This document shows, in pieces, positions 1,241 to 51,154 of a DNA stretch of 64,000 nucleotides. The notes beneath the pieces are model-generated. The model worked only from the letters and a program-made list of their open reading frames with translations, did no database searches and was not told the origin of the DNA. Source of the DNA: an uncultured Alphaproteobacteria bacterium (lineage in GTDB: Bacteria > Pseudomonadota > Alphaproteobacteria > RF32 > CAG-239); contig CAKQUG010000005.1 of the NCBI GenBank assembly GCA_934277545.1, positions 33,588 to 97,587 on the forward strand. Direction: 5' to 3'. A program made the position numbers and the translations under genes. The number at the start of each line of letters is the position of its first letter. Position 1 is the stretch's first letter.

Positions 1241-1882
1241 ATGATGACTTTATATATGTTTTTATGCGCAATCGGCGGCTATTTGGCCGGGTCAATACCG
1301 TTCGGACTGGTTTTGTGCTTTATGGCCGGCTACGGAGATATCCGCAAAATCGGATCCGGCAATATCGGCGCCACCAACGTTTTGCGCACCGGAAACAAAA
1401 CTTTAGCTTTGTTAACCGTGCTACTGGACGCGTTCAAAGCAGGTTTGGCCGCCTATGCAGCTTATCATCTTTTGCCGGAAACACCGTTTTCTTTTGCCGA
1501 CACAAACACAACATTAAACGTGTTCGGCTCTTTGCTGGCAGGCTCATTCGGCGTTATCGGACATAACTTTCCGGTTTGGCTCAAATTCAAAGGCGGAAAA
1601 GGCGTAGCCTCGGCATTCGGTCTTATTCTAATGACACAATGGCAGGTAGCTTTAATTGCTCTGGCGGTTTGGTTGGTAATGGCTTTTACTTTTCGTTATT
1701 CATCACTTGCCGCATTGACAGCGGCTGCCTCAATACCGGTAGTGGCATTTTTTATGTGCCCTCCCGTTTATGCCGCTTTTTACACAATAATTGCCTTACT
1801 TGTAATTGTGCGCCACCACGCCAATATTGCCCGCTTATTGAACGGCACGGAAAGCAAAATCAGCTTAAAGAAAAAGGCTTAA
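1241..1882 (+). CDS. plsY: Glycerol-3-phosphate acyltransferase PlsY
   Basis: Start chosen at ATG 1241, after GGAGAAAG at 1232-1239. Translation MMTLYMFLCAIGGYLAGSIPFGLVL..GSGNIGATNVLRTG matches the PlsY motif and the protein is polytopic. The listed ORF from 1106 begins in upstream non-coding sequence. Confidence 0.88.
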   Translation: MMTLYMFLCAIGGYLAGSIPFGLVLCFMAGYGDIRKIGSGNIGATNVLRTGNKTLALLTVLLDAFKAGLAAYAAYHLLPETPFSFADTNTTLNVFGSLLAGSFGVIGHNFPVWLKFKGGKGVASAFGLILMTQWQVALIALAVWLVMAFTFRYSSLAALTAAASIPVVAFFMCPPVYAAFYTIIALLVIVRHHANIARLLNGTESKISLKKKA

Positions 1883-20814: not shown

Positions 20815-21290
20815 TGACAGAATGGTTCAGACGCAACGCCGGAATAGTTGTTTTCAGAGCAGATAAAAAGGTTTTACTCTGCCAGCGTAATGATATGGCC
20901 GATTCCTGGCAATTTCCGCAAGGCGGTATTGAAGAAGGAGAAACACCGGAACAAGCAGCGACGCGTGAATTAAAGGAAGAAACGTCTTTAGCCGGATTAA
21001 AACAAATTAAAACATTAAGCGAAGCGGCGCGCTATCATTTTCCGCCGGAAGTAATCGCACAAATGCAAAAGCGAGGCTTTAACAACGCAGGGCAAGACAT
21101 GTATTGGTCGCTGTTTTATTTTGACGGACAAGATTCCGCCATTAACCTGCAAACCGCAGAGCCGGAATTTAAAGCATTTAAATGGGGTACTTTAGAAGAA
21201 GCTGTCGCGCTTGCCGTGGAGTTTAAAAAGCCTGCCTACGAAAAAATGTATCAGGCTTTTAAACCGCTGATTGACAATTATCAAGCCTAA
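20814..21290 (+). CDS. rppH: RNA pyrophosphohydrolase (Nudix)
   Basis: 158 aa. Nudix box GGIEEGETPEQAATRELKEETSL. The start overlaps the ctpA stop (ATGA). Confidence 0.85.
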   Translation: MTEWFRRNAGIVVFRADKKVLLCQRNDMADSWQFPQGGIEEGETPEQAATRELKEETSLAGLKQIKTLSEAARYHFPPEVIAQMQKRGFNNAGQDMYWSLFYFDGQDSAINLQTAEPEFKAFKWGTLEEAVALAVEFKKPAYEKMYQAFKPLIDNYQA

Positions 21291-22000
21291 TCGGCTTTTA
21301 GAAAAATATAAAAAGTTCCGGTTCCTCCTTCTTTAGCAGCAAGCCGACAGGTTTCATTAACCTGTGCCATGGTAGAGGTTTTAAAATTTGCCCGATACCA
21401 AAGATTTTGCCAATTACTGCCGTTCCACTTGTCGGAATCTTTACTGGAAAAAGCCACATTGTTAATTTCCTGCGGAATTTCTTTTGCCACCAGAAAAATG
21501 TTACGACAATAATCCTGCGCCGACAAAGAAAGCCTATCGGTTCCGGCTTTTACGCGTATTCCCATTAAATATTGATACTGCATATAATATGAACCGTCTT
21601 CCCGACGGATTTTTGCTGCCCCATAATTGAAATAAATCATATTATTATCTAAATCATAAAGGTAGTTATTTTTAAAGGTAAAGCCTTCAGGAACAGCTCC
21701 GACAGCGTTAAAAATAGAGGTAATATCGACATTATCTTTTTTCAGTCCGGCTATTAAGTTTGGCTTGAGAGATATAGCATTGGCGATAAGAGAGGCAAGC
21801 GCATGTCTTTGTAAATTTGAATGCCACATCAGCATGGCTTTACTATAACCGGCAATTCCGCCAACGGAAAGCACACCGATAATCGCCAGCACTCCAAGCA
21901 TTTCTATCATACTTCTACCAACCTCGCTCCCCGAGGGTAAGGTCGAGGCGCAAGCCTCGGGTGAAAGGTATTTAAAAACATTATTCAAATTCTTACACAT
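21287..22000 (-). CDS. Type IV pilin/pseudopilin-like protein with an unusually long leader peptide
   Basis: 237 aa. The class III signal is ...SEVG|RSMIEMLGVLAIIGVLSVGGIAGY: a cleavage-site Gly, Glu at +5, and a hydrophobic N-terminal helix. It is preceded by a leader of about 28 residues (MCKNLNNVFKYLSPEACASTLPSGSEVG). The RBS GGAG lies about 10 nt upstream. Confidence 0.7.
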   Translation of the reverse strand: MCKNLNNVFKYLSPEACASTLPSGSEVGRSMIEMLGVLAIIGVLSVGGIAGYSKAMLMWHSNLQRHALASLIANAISLKPNLIAGLKKDNVDITSIFNAVGAVPEGFTFKNNYLYDLDNNMIYFNYGAAKIRREDGSYYMQYQYLMGIRVKAGTDRLSLSAQDYCRNIFLVAKEIPQEINNVAFSSKDSDKWNGSNWQNLWYRANFKTSTMAQVNETCRLAAKEGGTGTFYIFLKAD

Positions 22001-22065
22001 ATTTCTAATTTCTAACTCCGTTTAATTTGTTACCTAAAACAAAACCCGCTAAAAGCGGGCGGATG

Positions 22066-22093
22066 TTGACAAACCGTGAAATATATGTATAAA
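22066..22093 (+). promoter_or_regulatory. Near-consensus sigma70-type promoter facing truA
   Basis: TTGACA (22066-22071), a 16-nt spacer, then TATAAA (22088-22093). Confidence 0.5.
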
Positions 22094-22345
22094 ACGGCTC
22101 GGCTTATTTGGCACATAGCCTTATTTAGCCGACATCCATCCCCCAGAACAGAAGTCGGCATACAATTATTTAAGTCGCTTATGCTCAAAGCGACTACATA
22201 TATTTCAAAGGGTTGTCACGCCCTGACAAGCTCTCACTTATCTGTCTTAATGTTAGCTGTAGTTTTATAAAAAGTAAAGCTGATTTTTGTTTGACTTTTA
22301 AACTTCCCTCGCCTAAGCTGGAAAAAATTTTAAAAAGGGTTGAAA

Positions 22346-23086
22346 ATGCGTTATAAAATTACGGTGGAATATGAGGGAACTCACTTGGTTGGCTGGCAAA
22401 AACAAAAAGACGGCGCCAGTGCGCAAGAATTTTTGGAAAAAGCTATTTTAGGCTTTTCACACCAAGCAACCGAAGTATTCGGCGCCGGGCGCACCGACGC
22501 CGGTGTTCACGCTTTGGCGCAAGTGGCGCATTTTGACTTAAATCTGGATTTAAGCGAATATAAAATAATGGAAAGTCTGAACGCTTTGCTGCGCGAGTTG
22601 CAAGCGCCGGTCAGCGTGTTGCAGGCAGAAAAAGTGTCTGACGATTTTCACGCCCGTTTTTCCGCGGTCGGACGCGGCTATATTTATCGAATTTTAAACC
22701 GCCGCGGTCCCAGTCCTTTGCTAATGGACAGAGTATGGCGCGTACCATATCCGCTGGATATTGAAGCTATGCGACAAGGCGCTAAATATTTGCTGGGATA
22801 CCATGATTTCAGTTCATTCCGCGGAGCCGGCTGTCAGGCGAAAAGTCCGGTAAAAACTTTAGATAAACTTGATATAGAACGCAACGGAGATGAAATTATT
22901 TTTACCGTGGAGGCACGCTCGTTTATTTATCATCAGGTGCGCAATATGGTCGGTACCTTGAAAGAAGTCGGCAACGGACGCCTTAAACCGGAAGACGTCA
23001 AAACCATTTTAGAGGCTTGCGACCGCACTAAAGCCGGTATCAGCGCCCCCGCCTGCGGATTATATTTGAATAAAGTTATGTACTGA
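22346..23086 (+). CDS. truA: tRNA pseudouridine(38-40) synthase
   Basis: MRYKITVEYEGTHLVGWQKQ...GAGRTDAGVHALAQVAHFD; the catalytic Asp lies in RTDAGVHA. ATG 22346 is preferred over the TTG at 22340. Confidence 0.92.
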   Translation: MRYKITVEYEGTHLVGWQKQKDGASAQEFLEKAILGFSHQATEVFGAGRTDAGVHALAQVAHFDLNLDLSEYKIMESLNALLRELQAPVSVLQAEKVSDDFHARFSAVGRGYIYRILNRRGPSPLLMDRVWRVPYPLDIEAMRQGAKYLLGYHDFSSFRGAGCQAKSPVKTLDKLDIERNGDEIIFTVEARSFIYHQVRNMVGTLKEVGNGRLKPEDVKTILEACDRTKAGISAPACGLYLNKVMY

Positions 23087-23180
23087 CCTGATAAAATTAA
23101 GCCTTGCAGAAAAGCAACAAAACTCTTGTACTGTACGCATATTTCCGTTAGTCTAGTGCCAACAGAAGGATTGTAAAAAA

Positions 23181-23828
23181 ATGATTGCTAAATTACGCGG
23201 GCTGATTGACACAATCGGCGATGATTATTGCATTATAGATGTGAACGGCGTGGGCTATCTCGTTTCCGCCTCGTCTAAAACTCTTGGTAAATTGGCTCAG
23301 GGACAGGAAGCCACACTTTTGACCGAAATGGTAGTGCGTGAAGACAGCCTTTCGCTGTTTGGTTTTGCCGACGCTTGGGAAAAAGAATGGTTTACGACTC
23401 TTACAAAAGTTCAGGGAGTCGGCGCTAAAGTTTGTTTGAGCATTCTCTCGGTTTTAACTCCGGCGCAACTTTCTCAAGCTATCAGCGCGCAAGATAAAAC
23501 ATCATTTTGTCGCGCTTCCGGCGTGGGGCCAAAACTTGCCGCCCGCATAGTAACCGAACTCAAAGATAAAATCGTTACAATTCCGGTCGGAATTTCCGGC
23601 ACCAATGCTGATGAAGTTATAGAGGGCTCTCCGGCGGCTCAGGTTGTTTTGCCTAAAGACGCCGATTATTCTAAAAGCGAAGATGTTATTTCGGCTTTGG
23701 TTAATCTGGGCTATCAACGTTTGGAGGCTTATCGCGCCGTATCTAAAGCTGTGGCAGAAAATCCTGACGCCAATGTGCCGACGCTTATCCGACTTGCCTT
23801 AAAAGAATTTGCTCAAAAGGAATTTTAG
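23181..23828 (+). CDS. ruvA: Holliday junction helicase subunit RuvA
   Basis: 215 aa. MIAKLRGLIDTIGDDYCIIDVNGVGYLV...LTKVQGVGAKVCLSIL with HhH motifs. Confidence 0.93.
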   Translation: MIAKLRGLIDTIGDDYCIIDVNGVGYLVSASSKTLGKLAQGQEATLLTEMVVREDSLSLFGFADAWEKEWFTTLTKVQGVGAKVCLSILSVLTPAQLSQAISAQDKTSFCRASGVGPKLAARIVTELKDKIVTIPVGISGTNADEVIEGSPAAQVVLPKDADYSKSEDVISALVNLGYQRLEAYRAVSKAVAENPDANVPTLIRLALKEFAQKEF

Positions 23829-23831
23829 ACC

Positions 23832-24887
23832 ATGAAAGATGATACGCGAATCGTTAGCCCGCAAGCCCAAGCCGAAGATGAACAAATCGGCAACAATCCG
23901 GTTAGTCTGCGTCCGACAAGTTTGGACGACTTTGTGGGACAGCGTGATGTTTGCGACAATTTGAAAGTGTTTATAGCCGCTGCCAAACAACGCGGAGAAG
24001 CGCTTGACCATGTGTTGTTATTCGGTCCTCCGGGACTTGGCAAAACCACGCTTTCTTCTATTGTAGCCAAAGAACTGGGCGTAGGTTTCCGCGCCACTTC
24101 GGCACCGATGATTTCTAAATCCGGCGATTTAGCGGCGATTTTGACTAATCTGGAACGCAACGACGTGTTGTTTATTGATGAAATCCACCGCTTAAATCCG
24201 GCTATTGAAGAAGTCTTATATTCAGCAATGGAAGATTTTCAGCTGGACTTGATTATCGGCGAAGGACCTTCCGCCCGCTCGGTGCGCATAGACCTACAAC
24301 CTTTCACATTGGTTGGCGCCACCACTCGTTCCGGCTTGCTTTCCACCCCGTTGCGTGAACGTTTTGGCATCCCTTTGCGCTTAGATTTTTATTCGCATGA
24401 AGACTTAAAAAAAATCGTGCAGCGTAACGCAAAACTTTTAAACATAGAAATTTCAGAAGACGGAGCTATGGAAATTGCCAAACGTTCGCGCGGAACACCA
24501 CGTATCGCCGGACGCTTGTTGCGCCGCGTGCGCGACTTTGGTGCGGTTTCAGCCCAAAAAATTATAGACTCGCGTATTTCCGACTTAGCTTTGAAACGCC
24601 TGGATGTTGATGACTTTGGGCTTGACGCTTTTGACCGCCGCTATTTGAATTGCATTGTCAAAAACTACGGCGGAGGTCCGGTCGGAGCCGATACTTTGGC
24701 GGCCGCTCTTTCGGAAGAACGCGACACTATTGAAGAAGTTGTGGAGCCGTTTTTGCTGAAACTCGGATTTCTACAGCGCACACCGCGTGGGCGTATTATC
24801 TCACAGCTCGGGTATCGTTATTTAGGCGTCAATATGCCGGCAAAACAAACCAAACAGTATGAACTTTTGGAAACTTTGGAGGATTAG
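23832..24887 (+). CDS. ruvB: Holliday junction helicase subunit RuvB
   Basis: 351 aa. AAA+ Walker [10 protein letters not shown], Walker [10 protein letters not shown], and the RuvB C-terminal winged helix. Confidence 0.95.
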
Positions 24888-24890
24888 ACA

Positions 24891-25334
24891 ATGTTTGAAA
24901 ATACACTCCCTGCTTTGGGACAAATAGAAAACAAAATTTTCGCTTATCCGGTGCGTGTTTATTATGAAGATACCGATGCCGGCGGAATTGTTTATTATGC
25001 CAATTACCTAAAGTTTGCCGAACGCGCTCGCACAGAGTTTATTCGCACATTGGGAGTTAATCAGGAAAAAAATCTGGAAGTCGGGCAGACCGGATTTGTA
25101 GTTCGCTCCTGCAATATTGACTATATTGCCTCGGCTCGTTTAGATGATGCGTTGGTTGTTACCTGCAAAATTTTAGAAGTCGGCGGCGCCAGTTTGCGTG
25201 TGTTGCAAGAAATTTACCGCGGCGACACACTACTGACAAAAATTGAAGTAAAACTCATTCACATGAGTTTAGCTTTAAAAAGACCGGTTAGAATTGACGC
25301 AGATTTAAGCGCTAAAATCAAAGAATTGCTTTAA
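24891..25334 (+). CDS. ybgC: Tol-Pal-associated acyl-CoA thioesterase YbgC (4HBT fold)
   Basis: 147 aa. YPVRVYYEDTDAGGIVYYANYLKF hotdog-fold motif. It directly follows ruvB, as in other proteobacteria. Confidence 0.85.
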   Translation: MFENTLPALGQIENKIFAYPVRVYYEDTDAGGIVYYANYLKFAERARTEFIRTLGVNQEKNLEVGQTGFVVRSCNIDYIASARLDDALVVTCKILEVGGASLRVLQEIYRGDTLLTKIEVKLIHMSLALKRPVRIDADLSAKIKELL

Positions 25335-26053
25335 TCCATACTCACGCCATAATGGTGTTCGCCAAATTTACGCACTTCGTCTTGCGGAGTAAATAAAAAG
25401 TAATAATAACGAATATTTGAAGCTGCTTGAGTTGTGTTTTTTTGGCGGAGACGCTTCCAAATTTCCTGCTTGTGATTCCATTGGTTGTAAGAGCGGCTTC
25501 CTTTAACTGCAACTTTCTGCATAGCCATCCATGTTGTGTCAATATAATAAGTATAACCGTTAATATTTACGGCATTCCAAGCATGACCGGTTCCAAGTTG
25601 CCGAGGATTATATATTTGCTGCAACCGTTTGGTTTTTACAACAAAACCTGAAACAATTCTAACTCCCCGTATTCCGGCATATAACGACATTTCTTGAAAC
25701 AACATGGCAAAATCGCCGCAAATACCTGTTCTCGCCTTAAAAACATCATAATGGTATTTCTTATTTTTTAAATTCGGCACCTTGTCAAATTTGTAGCTGT
25801 CATAGGCGATATGGGTTGCTATCCAGTAGGCAATCGCCTGCATTTTTTCTATTTTATTATCAAACGGTTTAGCCAGATAAACAGCAAGTGAACGAGGATT
25901 TTCAGAAACATATTGCGGAGCGTTCTTAGCATATCGCAAAATTTGTTGTTGACGAATACTGCTTTGTTTGATAAGCGGCTGTTCTTTGGCAAAAACCGGA
26001 GACACAGCAAAAAAAAGAACTGTTACAAACCACCAAAGTTTCTTCATTTTCAT
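25331..26053 (-). CDS. Secreted transglutaminase-like cysteine peptidase superfamily protein
   Basis: 240 aa. Signal peptide MKMKKLWWFVTVLFFAVSPVFA. Cys-His-Asp triad candidates: GICGDFAML, GHAWNAV, YYIDTTW. Confidence 0.65.
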   Translation of the reverse strand: MKMKKLWWFVTVLFFAVSPVFAKEQPLIKQSSIRQQQILRYAKNAPQYVSENPRSLAVYLAKPFDNKIEKMQAIAYWIATHIAYDSYKFDKVPNLKNKKYHYDVFKARTGICGDFAMLFQEMSLYAGIRGVRIVSGFVVKTKRLQQIYNPRQLGTGHAWNAVNINGYTYYIDTTWMAMQKVAVKGSRSYNQWNHKQEIWKRLRQKNTTQAASNIRYYYFLFTPQDEVRKFGEHHYGVSMD

Positions 26054-27579
26054 CCCTGTTTGGTCAGTTCAGGCTTAATTGCCGTAAATATGTAGCCGTA
26101 AACAGGACTTTCAGCCTCGTTTCGCAGAATGTGGCGTTCGCAGTTTATAATTTTTAAACCGGTGCTTTTCAGAGCTTTTTCCACATAATTCGGATTATGC
26201 ACAAAACGACCGCTCGGAGCCATAAAGAAATCATCGTCATTGTAATGATTTTCGGTTACCGAAAAAAAGAACATTCCGTTCGGTGTTAATGATTTTGAAA
26301 CTCTGACAAAAACTTTTGTTAAATCTCCAAAATAAGTAAGCACATCAGACGCAATAATTACATGAAAATAATACTCGGTTGTTTCCATATAATGACAAAT
26401 ATCATCGCACAAAAGTTGAGCATAAATTTTTTTTGCCCGCGCCACCTCAAGCATTTTTTCAGACAAATCAACCCCGATAAGCCCTTTACGAGAAGCAAAC
26501 TTTTTCATTTTTTCACCGCACAAGCCTGTGCCGCAACCAAGGTCTAAGATGTGATAACCTTTAAAAACCGAAGTTTTAAGATGTTTAGCCGCCTCATTTT
26601 CAATTAAAGCCGGAGCCTGATAGTCTAATGACTTCAACGTATCATCAAAATCTTGGGCAAACGAATCAAACGTAGCCTTAATAAAATGACTATCGGAATT
26701 TAAAAGCGCGTGTCCGTTTGTTAACGCACAAGCCATGTGTTGCACAATCTTATTATCCGGGAAAAAGTTAAGCCATTTAGATGCGTATTTTTTTGCTAAC
26801 TCTTCACTTTTTTCAGAATAACACTCATAAAGCAGATAACCAAAATTCAAATTTACATCATCGGTTTGTTCGGGGGCTGTCTTTACATATTTCCAGGCAA
26901 AAACAATGCAATTTTCCCAATCATTTAGATTACGGTAAGTTTCACTTAAAGCATTTAAAACCTCTCGATTATGCTCATCTAATTCATAGGCCCGTAAATA
27001 TTTATCTATGGCTTTTTCATATTTCTGCATAGCGGCGAGAGCATTACCGGAAATCATGTTGGCAACCACGCTTGACGGATGCCGTTCTAAAGATTTTTTT
27101 GCAAATTCCAACGCTAAAACATACTTACCCAACGAATAGTAGGTGTTGGCAAGGTTAATCATGGCAATATAACTGTTATTGTTCTGCTCGTACATTTTTT
27201 GATAATAAGTAAGAGCGTCTTCATAATTGCCACGGCAAAAAGCGATGTTTGCCAAATTTTGCCAAGCAGTCATATTATTTGGATTTAGATTAAGAGCTTT
27301 ATTGGCAAAATCCGATGATTTATCATATTCGCCAATTTCATAATTTATGGTAGAAAGATTTAACAGCGCCGCTTCAGAGCTTTTATTCAATTTCAAAGCA
27401 TGTGTATAAAATTCAATTGCTTTTTCTTTATCACCAAGCGAATCATAACAGTTACCGCAAGCAATCGCATATTTTTCCACCTTTGGATTACCTTGTAACA
27501 AAAGTTGGTAAATTTCCAAAGCTCTTTGAAATTGTTTCTCGCCAAATAAAACCGAAGCCTGATGCTCTAAATTTTCCAC
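26050..27579 (-). CDS. TPR-repeat protein fused to a class I SAM-dependent methyltransferase (COG4976-like)
   Basis: 509 aa. The N-terminal roughly 270 aa are TPR repeats (AIEFYTHALKLN..., ALTYYQKMYEQN...). The C-terminal domain carries methyltransferase motif I, ILDLGCGTGLCG. The stop overlaps the start of the downstream gene by 4 nt. Confidence 0.75.
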   Translation of the reverse strand: MENLEHQASVLFGEKQFQRALEIYQLLLQGNPKVEKYAIACGNCYDSLGDKEKAIEFYTHALKLNKSSEAALLNLSTINYEIGEYDKSSDFANKALNLNPNNMTAWQNLANIAFCRGNYEDALTYYQKMYEQNNNSYIAMINLANTYYSLGKYVLALEFAKKSLERHPSSVVANMISGNALAAMQKYEKAIDKYLRAYELDEHNREVLNALSETYRNLNDWENCIVFAWKYVKTAPEQTDDVNLNFGYLLYECYSEKSEELAKKYASKWLNFFPDNKIVQHMACALTNGHALLNSDSHFIKATFDSFAQDFDDTLKSLDYQAPALIENEAAKHLKTSVFKGYHILDLGCGTGLCGEKMKKFASRKGLIGVDLSEKMLEVARAKKIYAQLLCDDICHYMETTEYYFHVIIASDVLTYFGDLTKVFVRVSKSLTPNGMFFFSVTENHYNDDDFFMAPSGRFVHNPNYVEKALKSTGLKIINCERHILRNEAESPVYGYIFTAIKPELTKQG

Positions 27580-27717
27580 TGTAACCTCAATTTTTTATCA
27601 ACTGGCAGAGAGTATAACATAGGCTGACATAAAATAAAAGGAAAAATATTTACAAAAATACAAAAAAAGTATTGACTCATAAAAAAATATACTGTAATAA
27701 CGTAGTGTAATTTTTAT

Positions 27718-27804
27718 GGGGTTGTGGCGGAATTGGTAGACGCGCCAGACTCAAAATCTGGTGGCAGCAATGTCTTGAGAGTTCGATTCTCTCCGGCCCT
27801 ACCA
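27718..27804 (+). tRNA. tRNA-Leu (anticodon CAA), class II with a long variable arm
   Basis: 87 nt. D-arm GCGGAATTGGTAGACGC. Anticodon stem-loop CCAGA-CTCAAAA-TCTGG gives anticodon CAA. T-arm GAGAG-TTCGATT-CTCTC, followed by the 3' acceptor strand CGGCCCT, discriminator A and an encoded CCA. The acceptor stem GGGGTTG/CGGCCCT needs three G-U pairs. Confidence 0.8.
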
Positions 27805-27810
27805 TAAAAC

Positions 27811-27850
27811 TAAAAACACTCATTCGAAAGAATGGGTGTTTTTTTGTTTT
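27811..27850 (+). terminator. Rho-independent terminator after tRNA-Leu
   Basis: Hairpin aacactcattc-gaaa-gaatgggtgtt followed by TTTTTTTGTTTT. Confidence 0.75.
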
Positions 27851-27988
27851 AAAGCCGGAAGAAGCGAACTCGATAAGAGAGTTCGAAGCGGATAGCCGGC
27901 AAAACCGAGCAATTGCGATGGTTGAGCCGTTGCGACGCGAAAGGCACTGCTCGCAGCAAACTTGTTTGCAAGAGTAGGAATATAACAA

Positions 27989-28050
27989 GCTCTCCGGCCC
28001 TACCATAAAATTAACACACTCATTCGCAAGAATGGGTGTGTTTTCGTTTT
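27989..28050 (+). repeat. Imperfect direct repeat of the tRNA-Leu 3' end plus terminator (second copy)
   Basis: ctctccggccctaccataaaa at 27990-28010 is identical to 27789-27809, the T-arm 3' half, acceptor strand and CCA. It is followed by a diverged copy of the terminator hairpin (acactcattcgcaagaatgggtgtgttttcgtttt versus acactcattcgaaagaatgggtgtttttttgtttt). Confidence 0.85.
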
Positions 28051-28154
28051 AAACGACTTTGTAAAACAACCGTTTCATTCGGAATGTTTTATAATTTAAT
28101 GCCCTACATTTTCGTTTTTGCCACTTAAATAGTTTTTGTCTTTTAGCAACACCT

Positions 28155-29087
28155 TTACCGTAAAAACTTTATAACCTCCAGGGCGGCTTTGGCGCCGGAG
28201 CCGGCGGCGATTACAGCTTGATGATGTTCCGGTTCGCAAACATCACCTGCCGCGAACACTCCTTTTATATTGGTAGAACAGCCGTTTGCGCCTGTAACTA
28301 TATATCCTCCCGAGGTCAAATTAAGATAATTACGGAATAACTCTGTATTCGGATGATGCCCTATTGCCACAAATAAGCCAACCACATACAGTGTTTTTCG
28401 CATATCTGTTTTAACGTTGCGAATTTTTAATCCGGTAACCGAAAGCGGCTCATCTGTTCCTAAAACTTCTTCAATCACATTGTTCCAAACCAACACAATT
28501 TTACGATTTTGCAATATGCGTTGTTGCAAAACAGAATCTGCTCGCAGCGAATGACGTCTATGAATTAAATATACCTTATCCGTAAACGCCGATAAATAAA
28601 GCGCTTCTTCCGCCGCTGTGTTACCGCCGCCCACCACAGCCACTTCTTTTCCGCGATAGAAAAAGCCGTCGCAAGTGGCGCAAGACGAAACTCCGTGCCC
28701 CATATATTTTTGCTCACTCGGTAACCCCAGCCAATTTACCGATGAACCTGTCGCCACGATTATAGCTTTAGACTGATAAGAATTTCCGCCGATGGAACTG
28801 CAAGTAAACGGATGGTCAAAAAAATCGACTTCCGATATAATATCATCAACCATGGCTACACCGCGCGCCTCGGCCTGCCGGCGCATTTTTTCCATTAGTT
28901 CAAAACCCGCCAATGTTTCAACAAATCCGGGGTAATTATCAACTTCGCTTGATAAAATGAGCTGTCCTCCTTTTTGATTTCCGGCAACTATTAAAGCCTT
29001 AAGCCCTGCTCTAGCCGCATAAATTCCGGCCGTATACCCCGCAGGTCCCGACCCGATAATTAAAACGTCCGCTTTATATTCAGCCAT
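28155..29087 (-). CDS. trxB: Thioredoxin reductase
   Basis: 310 aa. FAD site IIGSGPAGYTAG, redox-active CATCDGFFY, NADPH site VVGGGNTA. Confidence 0.93.
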   Translation of the reverse strand: MAEYKADVLIIGSGPAGYTAGIYAARAGLKALIVAGNQKGGQLILSSEVDNYPGFVETLAGFELMEKMRRQAEARGVAMVDDIISEVDFFDHPFTCSSIGGNSYQSKAIIVATGSSVNWLGLPSEQKYMGHGVSSCATCDGFFYRGKEVAVVGGGNTAAEEALYLSAFTDKVYLIHRRHSLRADSVLQQRILQNRKIVLVWNNVIEEVLGTDEPLSVTGLKIRNVKTDMRKTLYVVGLFVAIGHHPNTELFRNYLNLTSGGYIVTGANGCSTNIKGVFAAGDVCEPEHHQAVIAAGSGAKAALEVIKFLR

Positions 29088-48730: not shown

Positions 48731-51154
48731 TTATTGTTGCGTTTCACCTTTTTTGAGAGCATAGAACTGATTTTCTTGTGCCACTTTTTCGCCGGAGTGA
48801 ACCACTATCTGCGGGAACGGAATTTCTATTCCCTCGTCAATAAAGCGTTTGTTGATGGCAAAACGCAAATCGCTCGGCACAATCCAACCTTTCCAAATAT
48901 CATTGGTATAGCAACGCAGTTCAAAGTTCAAACTGCTGTCGGCAAAATCTTTGAACAACACATAAGGCGCCGGATTTTTCATAACATATTTATGAGCAAG
49001 CGCACATTCCAACAAAATTTTACGCACTTTTTCCACATCCGAACCATAAGCCACCCCAACGGAAATGCTTTGGCGCGAGATATTGTCGCCGTGGGTCAAA
49101 TTTACGATAGAGCTGGAAAGCAAAGTCGCGTTAGGCACAATCACGCTGGTGCGGTTAAAACTTTCCATTTCGGTTGAACGAATGTTGATTTGCTTAATTT
49201 TACCTTCCGTACCGTTCATAATTACCCAATCGCCCACCTTAAACGGACGCTCAAACAAAATGATGACACCTGAAACAAGGTTCTTAATTACGTCCTGCAA
49301 ACCAAAACCGATACCTACCGACAAAGCACCGGCGATGAATGCGAGGTTAGTTAAATCTACACCGACGGCGATAATGGCCAGTAAGCACGAGATTATAAAC
49401 CCGACGAAGCTGATACCTGAAATTAAAGAGTGCTTAATGCCGTCGTCAATATCCATATTGTTAAAGACATTGGTAGCTAAATGTTTTTTAATCAGCTTAA
49501 CCACGGTTAAAGACACAAAGAACACCAAAATACCAAAGGCAATGGCAATAAGTGAAATTTGCACGCCGCCGATTTTGAAACCGAATAACAGTTTTTTACC
49601 CATTTGCAGCATAAAATCGCCCGGTAAACCCCACAGATTAAGCAAAGTGAAAATAAAGGTTAAAACCAAAATAGGATTTATAAAAGAGGTTATCCAAAAT
49701 TCTATTTTGCTGACATTGCGTTTAGTTACTTTTATAGATTTCATCCACGGGCTAGCGAGCACCAAACGCTTTAATATATCAATAAAGGCATGGCGGAATA
49801 ATTCAAAAATACCGAATATAACCATGGATAAAATCAGATTGCGTAAAATAAATGAAGAAAGCTCAGGGTAACCGATTAAAGACAAACCGAATGCTGTTGC
49901 TAACAACAAATTACTGGCAACCATAATTTTAAAACCGCTGTCCAAGGAATCGTGATCTTCTTCGTTTTCTTCGATATCTTCAGCTGTAATTCCTTTCATC
50001 TCACGATAAGAATCTACAGCAATTTTAATTATCCATATCAGGAAAAATGCTTTAACCGCACATGAAATCATCGTCAAAAAGTGTATGGTATCAATGGAAT
50101 ATTTTGCTTTTTGAGCAACAGTAACCTGTATAAGAGCAATGGCGTTGCATATAATAAACAAGAATATCACTCTGGTAAAGCGCAGAGCTTGGTCGTTTGG
50201 AATGTTAAACAATCGCCATTGCGGATGATTCGGCGCAAAAGTAACACGAGAAATAGTTGCCTCGATAATCGCCAAAAAAGAGGCAAAACCGCTTATCATC
50301 AAAACATGTCCCAACAGACTGTCTCCAAAAATTTTAGTGCTGACCATCCAAATCATGCAGGCGCCGACAAAGGCATCCGGAATCAAACCTCGAGCAATAG
50401 CGACAGCTATGGCGGCAACAATTTTACGGCTGAAATGCGGCAATTCAATGTCGTCTTTATATCCCCAGTGCGTTAAAATGTATTTACGCAGAATAATAGC
50501 GACAGCTAACGCGGCAATCAAAATCAGCGCCATGGAAACAATGCTCAAAATTGTGTAACTGCGGTCTTCGGCCGGTATTCCCTGATACCAGTCAACCGGC
50601 GATTTGGTAATATTCCAAAAGAAAATGGCATATAATTTCAAGCTGTTAAAGAAGACCATAGGGTTAATCAAGGCGGACTGTTTGGTGATTAAATCTCCGT
50701 AAACACGTTTGCTGCGAGCATTCAAAACCTGAGCGGTCAAGTCTTCTATTTTAACAATCAGTAAATCCGCTTCTTTCAGCACACGGTCTTCGGCGGTTAG
50801 CTGTTTAGTCAAGTCAGCACGCTGTCTGGTTATTACCTTGTCTTCTGTAGCGCCTTCTTTAGGTTCTCCAAGGGCATCAAGCTGTTTTTGGATATATTTT
50901 ATATCCTTGTCTAAATCTTTGCGGGTACCGCTGATTTGTGCTTCTTGTTCGCTTAAATAACTGACATAACTGTTTATGTTATCTTCAGTTAAATTTTCTT
51001 TTTTCAACTCATTGTCAATTTGTTCCAGTTTTTTATTTATCTTATTAAAATCTATGGAATTTTTAGAATCCGCACCGTCAGCGGCTTGCAGATTACCGGC
51101 CAGTAATACAATGGTAAAAAAAGCAATAAAAACAGCTTTAAAAAGTTTAGCCAT
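48731..51154 (-). CDS. MscK/KefA-like mechanosensitive channel (large MscS family)
   Basis: 807 aa. Signal peptide, a periplasmic coiled-coil N-terminal domain, about 11 transmembrane helices, and the C-terminal MscS domain (GDWVIMNGTEGKIKQINIRSTEME...). A terminator hairpin aagccgct-ttttcaa-gcggctt lies just downstream at about 48695-48722. Confidence 0.85.
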   Translation of the reverse strand: MAKLFKAVFIAFFTIVLLAGNLQAADGADSKNSIDFNKINKKLEQIDNELKKENLTEDNINSYVSYLSEQEAQISGTRKDLDKDIKYIQKQLDALGEPKEGATEDKVITRQRADLTKQLTAEDRVLKEADLLIVKIEDLTAQVLNARSKRVYGDLITKQSALINPMVFFNSLKLYAIFFWNITKSPVDWYQGIPAEDRSYTILSIVSMALILIAALAVAIILRKYILTHWGYKDDIELPHFSRKIVAAIAVAIARGLIPDAFVGACMIWMVSTKIFGDSLLGHVLMISGFASFLAIIEATISRVTFAPNHPQWRLFNIPNDQALRFTRVIFLFIICNAIALIQVTVAQKAKYSIDTIHFLTMISCAVKAFFLIWIIKIAVDSYREMKGITAEDIEENEEDHDSLDSGFKIMVASNLLLATAFGLSLIGYPELSSFILRNLILSMVIFGIFELFRHAFIDILKRLVLASPWMKSIKVTKRNVSKIEFWITSFINPILVLTFIFTLLNLWGLPGDFMLQMGKKLLFGFKIGGVQISLIAIAFGILVFFVSLTVVKLIKKHLATNVFNNMDIDDGIKHSLISGISFVGFIISCLLAIIAVGVDLTNLAFIAGALSVGIGFGLQDVIKNLVSGVIILFERPFKVGDWVIMNGTEGKIKQINIRSTEMESFNRTSVIVPNATLLSSSIVNLTHGDNISRQSISVGVAYGSDVEKVRKILLECALAHKYVMKNPAPYVLFKDFADSSLNFELRCYTNDIWKGWIVPSDLRFAINKRFIDEGIEIPFPQIVVHSGEKVAQENQFYALKKGETQQ

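What the first reader, a model, noticed from the sequence alone, without database searches (positions are those of the whole stretch)
27718..28050. tRNA-Leu(CAA) with its 3' end and terminator duplicated about 200 bp downstream (integration scar or decayed attL/attR)
The last 16 nt of the tRNA (CTCTCCGGCCCTACCA), plus ATAAAA and the following terminator hairpin, recur as an imperfect direct repeat about 62 bp long. The first copy is 27789-27850 and the second 27989-28050. They flank a 138-bp non-coding segment that contains a further T-arm-like fragment (GAGAGTTCGAAGC) inside nested inverted repeats (GCCGG...GCGAACTC-gataaga-GAGTTCG...GCCGGC). Duplication of a tRNA 3' end is the classic footprint of tyrosine-integrase-mediated insertion of an island or prophage. 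Here the intervening DNA is tiny, which suggests an element that excised or decayed, or a tandem pseudo-tRNA. The flanking genes (the lysozyme-domain gene and the DUF1311 gene) are the kind of cargo that travels with such elements.
Basis: seen in the sequence. Interest (0 to 1): 0.55.

Follow-up and report, generated by a model that had tools for sequence, protein, structure and literature searches.

The report
Gene-less 201-bp insert in tRNA-Leu
A tRNA-Leu gene of an uncultured gut alphaproteobacterium carries a 201-bp gene-less insert flanked by copies of the tRNA's last 16 bases; it looks like the stripped-down remnant of an integrating element, and it is absent, single or tandemly repeated in related species.

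Summary
tRNA-Leu(CAA) is at 27718-27804. Its last 16 nt plus a terminator (27789-27853) recur at 27990-28053, at 59/65 identity. A 136-nt, GC-rich, ORF-less core (27854-27989) lies between the copies.

Comparison with relatives shows a discrete 201-bp module: terminator T1, core and 16-mer.
- The closest relative, L035, lacks it. There the tRNA is followed directly by the copy-2-type terminator.
- L055 has the same module in front of a degenerate 16-mer and an unrelated terminator. That terminator directly follows the tRNA in L045, which lacks the module.
- L036 has 2.5 tandem units.
- The core is 136/136 identical between the window and L036, whose adjacent gene is only 82% identical. Two conspecific contigs differ at 4-5 sites.

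No integrase or distal att copy was found anywhere in the 64-kb window. The neighbouring genes are conserved core genes, not cargo.

[quoted passage not shown] It supplies the tRNA's 3' end and terminator, and its copy number changes by recombination between its repeats.

The core may fold as an RNA (z -3.96), but no compensatory changes or promoter were found.

This is a variant of a known kind, of moderate interest.

The parts
27672..27700 (+). Promoter-like site of the tRNA gene: TTGACT, 17-nt spacer, TAATAA
   Evidence: Read by eye. The scan does not list it, because that scan requires a T at position 6 of the second hexamer. The TTGAC motif at this position recurs in L035, L036, L038 and L039. 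This is an inference only.
27718..27804 (+). tRNA-Leu(CAA), intact, 87 nt. Its last 16 nt belong to the left repeat.
   Evidence: ARAGORN. Rfam RF00005 at 55.3 bits. 100% identical in L035, L036, L054, L055 and L039.
27789..27804 (+). att-like repeat, copy 1: CTCTCCGGCCCTACCA (3' strand of the T stem, 3' strand of the acceptor stem, then ACCA)
27805..27853 (+). Terminator T1, carried by the module (hairpin 27812-27843 plus T-run)
   Evidence: A T1-type terminator always accompanies the core: in L036, L038, L054, L055, L059 and L063. Genomes without the core have other terminators.
27854..27989 (+). 136-nt core of the module. GC is 51% against 41% for the window. It has no conserved ORF.
   Evidence: 136/136 identical to L036, 135/136 to L054 and 129/136 to L055. 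The + strand folds with z -3.96 and the - strand with z -1.88. The 19-codon ORF at 27915-27974 loses its ATG in L055.
27854..27900 (+). Left palindrome of the core: an inverted copy of the tRNA T-arm/acceptor (GCCGGAAGAAGCGAACTC), the 7-nt spacer GATAAGA, then a direct T-arm-like copy (GAGTTCGAAGCGGATAGCCGGC)
   Evidence: I7, D10. (p about 0.001 for the inverted copy and about 0.04 for the direct copy).
27990..28005 (+). att-like repeat, copy 2: the displaced copy of the tRNA's 3' end
   Evidence: In L055 the corresponding copy is degenerate, CTCTCCGCCCCTGCCA.
28006..28053 (+). Terminator T2, the presumed native terminator of the tRNA (hairpin 28013-28042 plus T-run)
   Evidence: It matches the terminator that directly follows the tRNA in L035 at 45/49, against 43/49 for T1 versus L035, and shares the ACAC/GTGT signature.

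Best explanation
The locus holds a 201-bp, gene-less insertion module made of terminator T1 (49 nt), a core (136 nt) and the 16-nt tRNA 3' end. It sits in the 3' end of tRNA-Leu(CAA).

As with elements integrated by tyrosine integrases at tRNA 3' ends, the module supplies the last bases and the terminator of the working tRNA. The original 16 nt and the original terminator (T2) are displaced downstream.

[quoted passage not shown] Any site-specific movement would need an integrase supplied in trans.

Once the module is in place, its repeats of about 65 bp allow homologous recombination to delete it or amplify it in tandem.

What is shown: the module's boundaries, its presence or absence and copy-number variation among relatives, its high conservation, and the absence of any integrase in the window.

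What is inferred: that integrase-mediated insertion created it, and that it can still move.
For: 1. Intact tRNA plus direct repeats of its 3' end.

2. Unoccupied sites in two different native contexts.
- L035 (neighbouring TPR-methyltransferase 97% aa) has the tRNA followed directly by a T2-type terminator.
- L055 has the same T1 + core ahead of a degenerate 16-mer and an unrelated terminator, T4, with its flank.
- That T4 and flank follow the tRNA directly in L045 (BLAST E 9e-12).

3. T1 is seen only together with the core. Genomes without the core have different terminators.

4. Copy number varies:
- 0 copies in L035, L039 and L045.
- 1 copy in the window, in all 10 places shown of 22 conspecific contigs, and in L055.
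- 2.5 tandem units of 201 bp at 99% identity in L036.
- L054 ends inside a second T1.

5. The pattern of identity is not vertical descent.
- The core is 136/136 identical between the window and L036, while the adjacent gene is 82% and the promoter spacer 91% identical.
- Conspecific L059 and L063 differ at 4-5 core sites.
- L059 carries a T1/T2 chimeric second terminator.

6. A 528-aa PF00589 integrase gene lies directly downstream of the same tRNA in the relative L051/L066.
Against: - No integrase was found anywhere in the 64-kb window.
- No larger element sharing the core or its junction turned up in viral contigs, phage records or plasmid records.
- The L051/L066 integrase locus shows no second att copy within 10 kb and no similarity to the core.
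- Within the species the module looks fixed.
- The palindrome built from T-arm copies could equally be a template-switching product.
- The high conservation and the fold signal suggest a function beyond that of a scar.
Confidence: 0.55

Rival explanations
1. The module has a local origin and no integrase was ever involved. Replication slippage or template switching at the tRNA's T-arm and terminator produced a duplication of the 3' end plus a new palindromic spacer. The module then spread between species by homologous recombination, or by homology-facilitated illegitimate recombination, anchored on the perfectly conserved tRNA.
For: - The left end of the core is an inverted copy plus a direct copy of the tRNA T-arm/acceptor.
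- T1 and T2 are 43/49 identical.
- No integrase and no parent element were found.
- Recombination tracts are evident at the locus in L059 and L063.
- The window encodes DprA, a pilin-like protein and a prepilin peptidase, so natural transformation is conceivable.
Against: - The right-hand homology in the L055/L045 context is only about 16 nt. The terminator there is unrelated to T1.
- The boundaries are identical in two different native contexts, which fits site-specific insertion better.
- About 90 nt of the core have no significant similarity to the tRNA.
Confidence: 0.25
2. The core is a functional small RNA. It would be read from the tRNA promoter by terminator read-through, or from a weak promoter of its own. 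It would end in a copy of the tRNA's 3' end (…CCCUACCA) ahead of a terminator. Selection on this RNA would explain the conservation. This is compatible with either origin.
For: - GC is 51% against 41% for the window.
- The + strand folds with z -3.96 and the - strand with z -1.88.
- Of 12 variable columns in 5 distinct copies, 9 are unpaired and 2 are G-U-compatible.
- The two C-to-T changes in the truncated L038 copy keep the hairpin as G.U pairs on the + strand only.
- Every unit is followed by a terminator.
Against: - No pair changes on both sides, so there is no covariation signal.
- No Rfam family matches.
- No convincing promoter lies between T1 and the core (and reading).
- The closest relative, L035, does without the module.
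- The variable columns are few, and four of them sit together in one loop.
Confidence: 0.25
3. The second copy is a decayed tandem duplicate of the whole tRNA-Leu gene, that is, a pseudo-tRNA.
For: There are short similarities to the variable arm (CTGGTGGCAGCAA against CTGCTCGCAGCAA, D8) and to the T-arm (D10).
Against: - ARAGORN and Rfam find no second tRNA-like gene.
- The core's similarity to the 5' part of the tRNA is only marginally above shuffles, apart from the T-arm 10-mer (p about 0.04).
- The core is 136 nt where the corresponding part of the tRNA is 71 nt.
- The core is highly conserved rather than decaying.
Confidence: 0.05

Closest known systems
CIME (cis-mobilizable element) and tandem accretion at tRNA genes, as defined for streptococcal ICE/IME systems (PMC5704250)
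   Same: It is flanked by attL-like and attR-like repeats that include the 3' end of the target tRNA gene. It has no integration or transfer genes. Tandem arrangements occur at the same att site.
   Different: At 201 bp it is tiny and has no gene remnants. No related ICE, IME or prophage was found. Mobilisation in cis or in trans is untested. The host is a gut alphaproteobacterium. The core is conserved as if under selection.
Partial-tRNA remnants in tRNA-linked genomic islands, for example tycheposon islands of Prochlorococcus (bioRxiv 10.1101/2020.12.28.424599)
   Same: Partial tRNA copies mark successive integrations next to a full-length tRNA. Degenerate remnants and tandem-repeat junctions are seen.
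   Different: In those islands the remnants lie among kilobases of cargo and integrase fragments. Here there is no cargo at all, and the downstream genes are core genes.
Integration of P4-family elements at leuX, the E. coli tRNA-Leu(CAA) gene (from my own knowledge: Pierson and Kahn 1987; Williams 2002 on sublocations within tRNA genes)
   Same: The target is a tRNA of the same anticodon, attacked at its 3' end. The element carries a replacement 3' end, so the tRNA stays intact.
   Different: P4-type elements encode their own integrase and many other genes. No homology to them was tested or found.
ORF-less integron cassettes (from my own knowledge)
   Same: They are small, gene-less units of a few hundred bp. 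An integrase supplied in trans inserts them at a specific site, and they can stack in tandem.
   Different: Cassettes use attC hairpins and IntI at attI, not a tRNA gene. No integron integrase or attC was seen here.

Membership tests
tRNA-integrated element (prophage, genomic island, ICE) | Direct repeats of the tRNA's 3' end flank the inserted DNA, and the tRNA is intact at one end | tested here: met
tRNA-integrated element (prophage, genomic island, ICE) | An unoccupied site exists in related genomes | tested here: met
   L035. L045 serves as the comparator for L055.
tRNA-integrated element (prophage, genomic island, ICE) | The element encodes an integrase (tyrosine or serine recombinase) | tested here: not met
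   The 136-nt core has no conserved ORF. Pfam scans of 40 ORFs found no recombinase, and no ORF of 150 aa or more anywhere in the window carries the tyrosine-recombinase motif H-x-x-R.
tRNA-integrated element (prophage, genomic island, ICE) | Variable cargo genes lie between the att copies | tested here: not met
   Only 136 nt lie between the copies. The neighbouring trxB and lysozyme-domain genes are collinear in the closer relatives (L001-L011).
CIME (cis-mobilizable element) | Retains attL and attR but lacks integration and transfer genes | tested here: met
CIME (cis-mobilizable element) | Derived by decay from an ICE, IME or prophage of the same att specificity | tested here: inconclusive
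   No related larger element in viral contigs, phage records or plasmid records. An unrelated integrase gene sits at the same tRNA in L051/L066.
CIME (cis-mobilizable element) | Excises or transfers when a cognate integrase or ICE is present | not testable with these tools
   This needs read-level junction searches or experiments.
MITE-like non-autonomous transposon | Many dispersed copies per genome, with terminal inverted repeats and a short target-site duplication | tested here: not met
   The only copy in the 64-kb window is at the tRNA. In all loci fetched it occurs only downstream of tRNA-Leu. The ends are imperfectly inverted, but the duplication is 16-65 nt.
Known structured RNA family (Rfam) | A match to a curated covariance model | tested here: not met
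   Only the tRNA reaches threshold. Nothing scores better than E 0.04 over the module.
Novel structured small RNA gene | A conserved secondary structure supported by compensatory changes, with a promoter and a terminator | tested here: inconclusive
   A stable + strand fold and tolerated substitutions, but no pair changed on both sides. A terminator is present. No promoter was found.
Tandem pseudo-tRNA | The second copy is recognisable as a (decayed) full tRNA | tested here: not met

The most novel reading that the evidence does not exclude
The 201-bp unit is a live miniature integrative element: in effect an attP with nothing attached. A tRNA-Leu-specific integrase encoded elsewhere would excise it as a circle and re-insert it in trans. 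It would spread among gut Alphaproteobacteria and stack in tandem. Its conserved core might also act as a structured RNA or DNA ending in a mimic of the tRNA's 3' end. That would make it the integrase-element counterpart of a MITE.
Probability: 0.15. Interest if true: 0.65.

Novelty: new variant of a known kind. Interest (0 to 1): 0.38.

Why it matters
Partial tRNA copies are routinely used to delimit islands and prophages. This case shows that such a footprint can bound nothing but a 136-nt conserved core. Calling the neighbouring genes cargo would have been wrong.

If the module is still mobile, it would be a very small non-autonomous passenger of tRNA-targeting integrases. It would also be a source of tandem repeats, and the repeats may be why several metagenome contigs end at or near this locus.

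If instead the core is an RNA, it would be a new tRNA-linked small RNA in a poorly known, uncultured gut lineage.

Tried and rejected
- Chance repeat: rejected.
- Assembly artefact: rejected. 22 contigs carry the identical neighbouring protein, and all 10 places shown have the same layout.
- Second tRNA, pseudo-tRNA or tmRNA: none found by ARAGORN or Rfam.
- Peptide gene in the core: the 19-codon ORF loses its start codon in L055.
- Neighbouring genes as island cargo: rejected by collinearity in relatives and by their housekeeping Pfam content.
- Distal att copy in the window: none with up to 2 mismatches.
- Integrase in the window: none (a tblastn with the L051 integrase also found nothing).
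- Parent element: exact-pattern scans of viral contigs and blastn against phage and plasmid records found nothing. Viral locus L043 merely contains a match to the tRNA's 3' end.
- attR of the L051/L066 integrase locus: none within 10 kb.
- A 19/20 match of the core inside an MscS channel gene (50701-50720): judged to be chance.
- Inversion mediated by the repeat: the 22284-28153 segment is inverted relative to L001, L002 and L015, but there is no inverted att copy at the other breakpoint.

Full report
**What is in the sequence**

ARAGORN finds a single tRNA in the window, tRNA-Leu(CAA) at 27718-27804 on the + strand. Rfam confirms it at 55.3 bits. Its last 16 nt, CTCTCCGGCCCTACCA, recur once at 27990-28005. 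Shuffles predict 0.01 matches, even with 2 mismatches allowed.

The repeat continues through ATAAAA and a terminator hairpin with a T-run. Copy 1 is 27789-27853 and copy 2 is 27990-28053. They differ by 5 mismatches and one indel.

Between the copies lie 136 nt (27854-27989). This segment has 51% GC, against 41% for the window.

The first 18 nt of the segment are a significant inverted copy of the tRNA T-arm and acceptor 3' strand (p about 0.001). The only corrections are a start that is off by one and a spacer of 136 nt rather than 138.

**Context**

The neighbours are ordinary chromosomal genes:
- A TPR-methyltransferase (26050-27579, - strand), divergent from the tRNA.
- trxB (28155-29087, - strand).
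- A lysozyme-domain protein.
- A methyltransferase.
- An LprI-domain protein.
- truA, ruvA and ruvB upstream.

Pfam scans of 40 ORFs found only housekeeping families and no recombinase. No ORF of 150 aa or more in the whole window carries the tyrosine-recombinase H-x-x-R motif.

The organism is an uncultured gut alphaproteobacterium. The closest trxB loci are MAGs, several from Hadza and Nepalese samples and mostly labelled Alphaproteobacteria. The trxB-to-LprI block is collinear in the closer of those relatives (L001-L011), so it is not cargo.

**Comparative evidence**

The tRNA-Leu(CAA)/TPR-methyltransferase pair is conserved across the clade. What follows the tRNA differs from genome to genome:

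| Locus | Relation to the window | What follows the tRNA |
|---|---|---|
| Window, and the 10 places shown of 22 conspecific contigs | Identical TPR-methyltransferase protein | T1, 136-nt core, 16-mer, T2 (one copy) |
| L035 | Methyltransferase 97% aa, the closest relative | A terminator of the copy-2 type (45/49 to T2, 43/49 to T1, shared ACAC/GTGT signature); no 136-nt segment |
| L036 | 91% aa | Two full 201-bp units and a truncated third (period 201, 2.5 copies, 99% matches) |
| L054 | Promoter region as in L036 and L037 | One full unit, then the contig ends inside a second T1 |
| L055 | Gene 81% nt | T1, core (129/136), a degenerate 16-mer (CTCTCCGCCCCTGCCA), then an unrelated terminator T4 and flank |
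| L045 | 72% aa | T4 and the same flank directly after the tRNA (E 9e-12); no module |
| L039 | 84% aa | A further unrelated terminator; no module |
| L051/L066 | 69% aa | A further unrelated terminator, then an integrase gene; no module |

T1 occurs only together with the core.

L038 and the last unit of L036 are truncations. Homology resumes further along the flank that they share with L055.

So a discrete 201-bp module (T1 of 49 nt, core of 136 nt, 16-mer) sits at the same position of the tRNA in at least two different native contexts. For each context there is a genome without the module.

**Conservation pattern**

The core is 136/136 identical between the window and L036. The adjacent gene is 82% identical and the promoter spacer 91%. 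Two conspecific contigs, L059 and L063, have the identical methyltransferase protein yet differ from the window at 4-5 core sites and at many promoter sites. L059 also has a T1/T2 chimeric second terminator.

This is not simple vertical descent. It points to horizontal exchange and recombination at the locus.

**Is it an RNA?**

- The + strand of 27851-28005 folds at -54.4 kcal/mol with z -3.96. A 10-bp helix joins the 5' end of the core (GCCGGAAGAAGC) to the GC before the 16-mer and its first 8 nt (GCUCUCCGGC).
- The - strand gives z -1.88.
- Among five distinct full-length copies, 12 columns vary. Nine are unpaired in the model, two are G-U-compatible and one breaks a pair. No pair changes on both sides, so covariation is nil.
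- No Rfam family matches.
- No credible promoter separates T1 from the core (and reading).
- A 19-codon ORF in the core loses its ATG in L055.

A structured RNA or structured DNA is possible but not shown.

**Is it mobile?**

A 528-aa PF00589 integrase gene lies directly downstream of the same tRNA in a more distant relative, L051/L066. So the site is used by integrase-bearing DNA in this clade.

That locus, however, shows no second att copy within 10 kb and no similarity to the core. Scans of viral contigs and of phage and plasmid records found no relative of the core or of its junction. Within the species the single-copy state looks fixed.

**Conclusion**

The best-supported reading is a miniature, integrase-less integrative-element remnant, similar to a CIME (definition in PMC5704250). 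It provides the tRNA's 3' end and terminator. Its repeats of about 65 bp permit deletion (as in L035), gene conversion (as in L059) and tandem amplification (as in L036). Confidence is about 0.55.

A purely local origin by slippage or template switching, followed by spread through recombination, remains a serious rival at 0.25. A functional small RNA may coexist with either origin (0.25). The pseudo-tRNA idea is disfavoured (0.05).

The closest descriptions in the literature are CIMEs with tandem accretion at tRNA genes, and the partial-tRNA remnants of tycheposon islands (bioRxiv 10.1101/2020.12.28.424599). This case differs in being only 201 bp long, free of genes, and conserved.

It is a new variant of a known kind, of moderate interest.

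Noticed in passing
window 22284-28153, compared with L001, L002 and L015: This 5.9-kb segment (truA, ruvA, ruvB, a thioesterase, a transglutaminase-like gene, the TPR-methyltransferase and tRNA-Leu with its module) is inverted relative to the three closest trxB loci. In those loci the trxB stop codon is followed 15 bp later by the truA promoter. One breakpoint lies within 100 bp of terminator T2. No inverted att copy sits at the other breakpoint.
   Followed up: partly
window 22008-22235 (+); L010 5005-5207 (-); L038 1151-1294 (-): A conserved non-coding element with several hairpins, sitting at the other inversion breakpoint. It has homologues right after trxB in L010 and downstream of tRNA-Leu in L038. 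The + strand folds with z -3.24 and the - strand with z -2.38. No Rfam match is better than E 0.3. It may be an unannotated small RNA.
   Followed up: partly
L055 14485-14620; L038 about 1300-1445 (- strand): Downstream of tRNA-Leu both loci share a promoter-like CTTGACTTTAAAGC…TACNTTTAAC. It is followed by a conserved stretch of about 80 nt that ends in a hairpin and a T-run (AACGTCCGGTGT…ACACCGGACGTTAAATTTTA). This looks like another small RNA gene.
   Followed up: no
L051 1003-2589 (= L066 8003-9589): A 528-aa tyrosine integrase (PF00589) is encoded directly downstream of tRNA-Leu(CAA) in a relative whose TPR-methyltransferase is 69% identical. An aquaporin gene and then core genes follow it. 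No second copy of the tRNA's 3' end lies within 10 kb.
   Followed up: partly
L035, L037, L040, L041, L042, L054: These six metagenome contigs end within or just beyond this tRNA or module. That is consistent with assembly breaks caused by the tandem repeat or by strain variation at the locus.
   Followed up: no
L064 and L065, positions equivalent to window 27748 and 27785: Two conspecific contigs carry G-to-A changes inside the tRNA, one of them in the T-loop (TTCGATT to TTCAATT).
   Followed up: no
between ruvA and truA: L035, L039, L040, L041, L056, L058; L015 5748-8003: An mntP gene is present between ruvA and truA in some strains and absent in the window and in others. L015 has about 2.25 kb of extra DNA at this position.
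   Followed up: no
window 21287-22000 (-): A 237-aa ORF with no Pfam hit. Read by eye, its N-terminus resembles a prepilin-type leader and helix. This short stretch (21826-21921) recurs next to trxB in L003, L004, L006 and L010.
   Followed up: no
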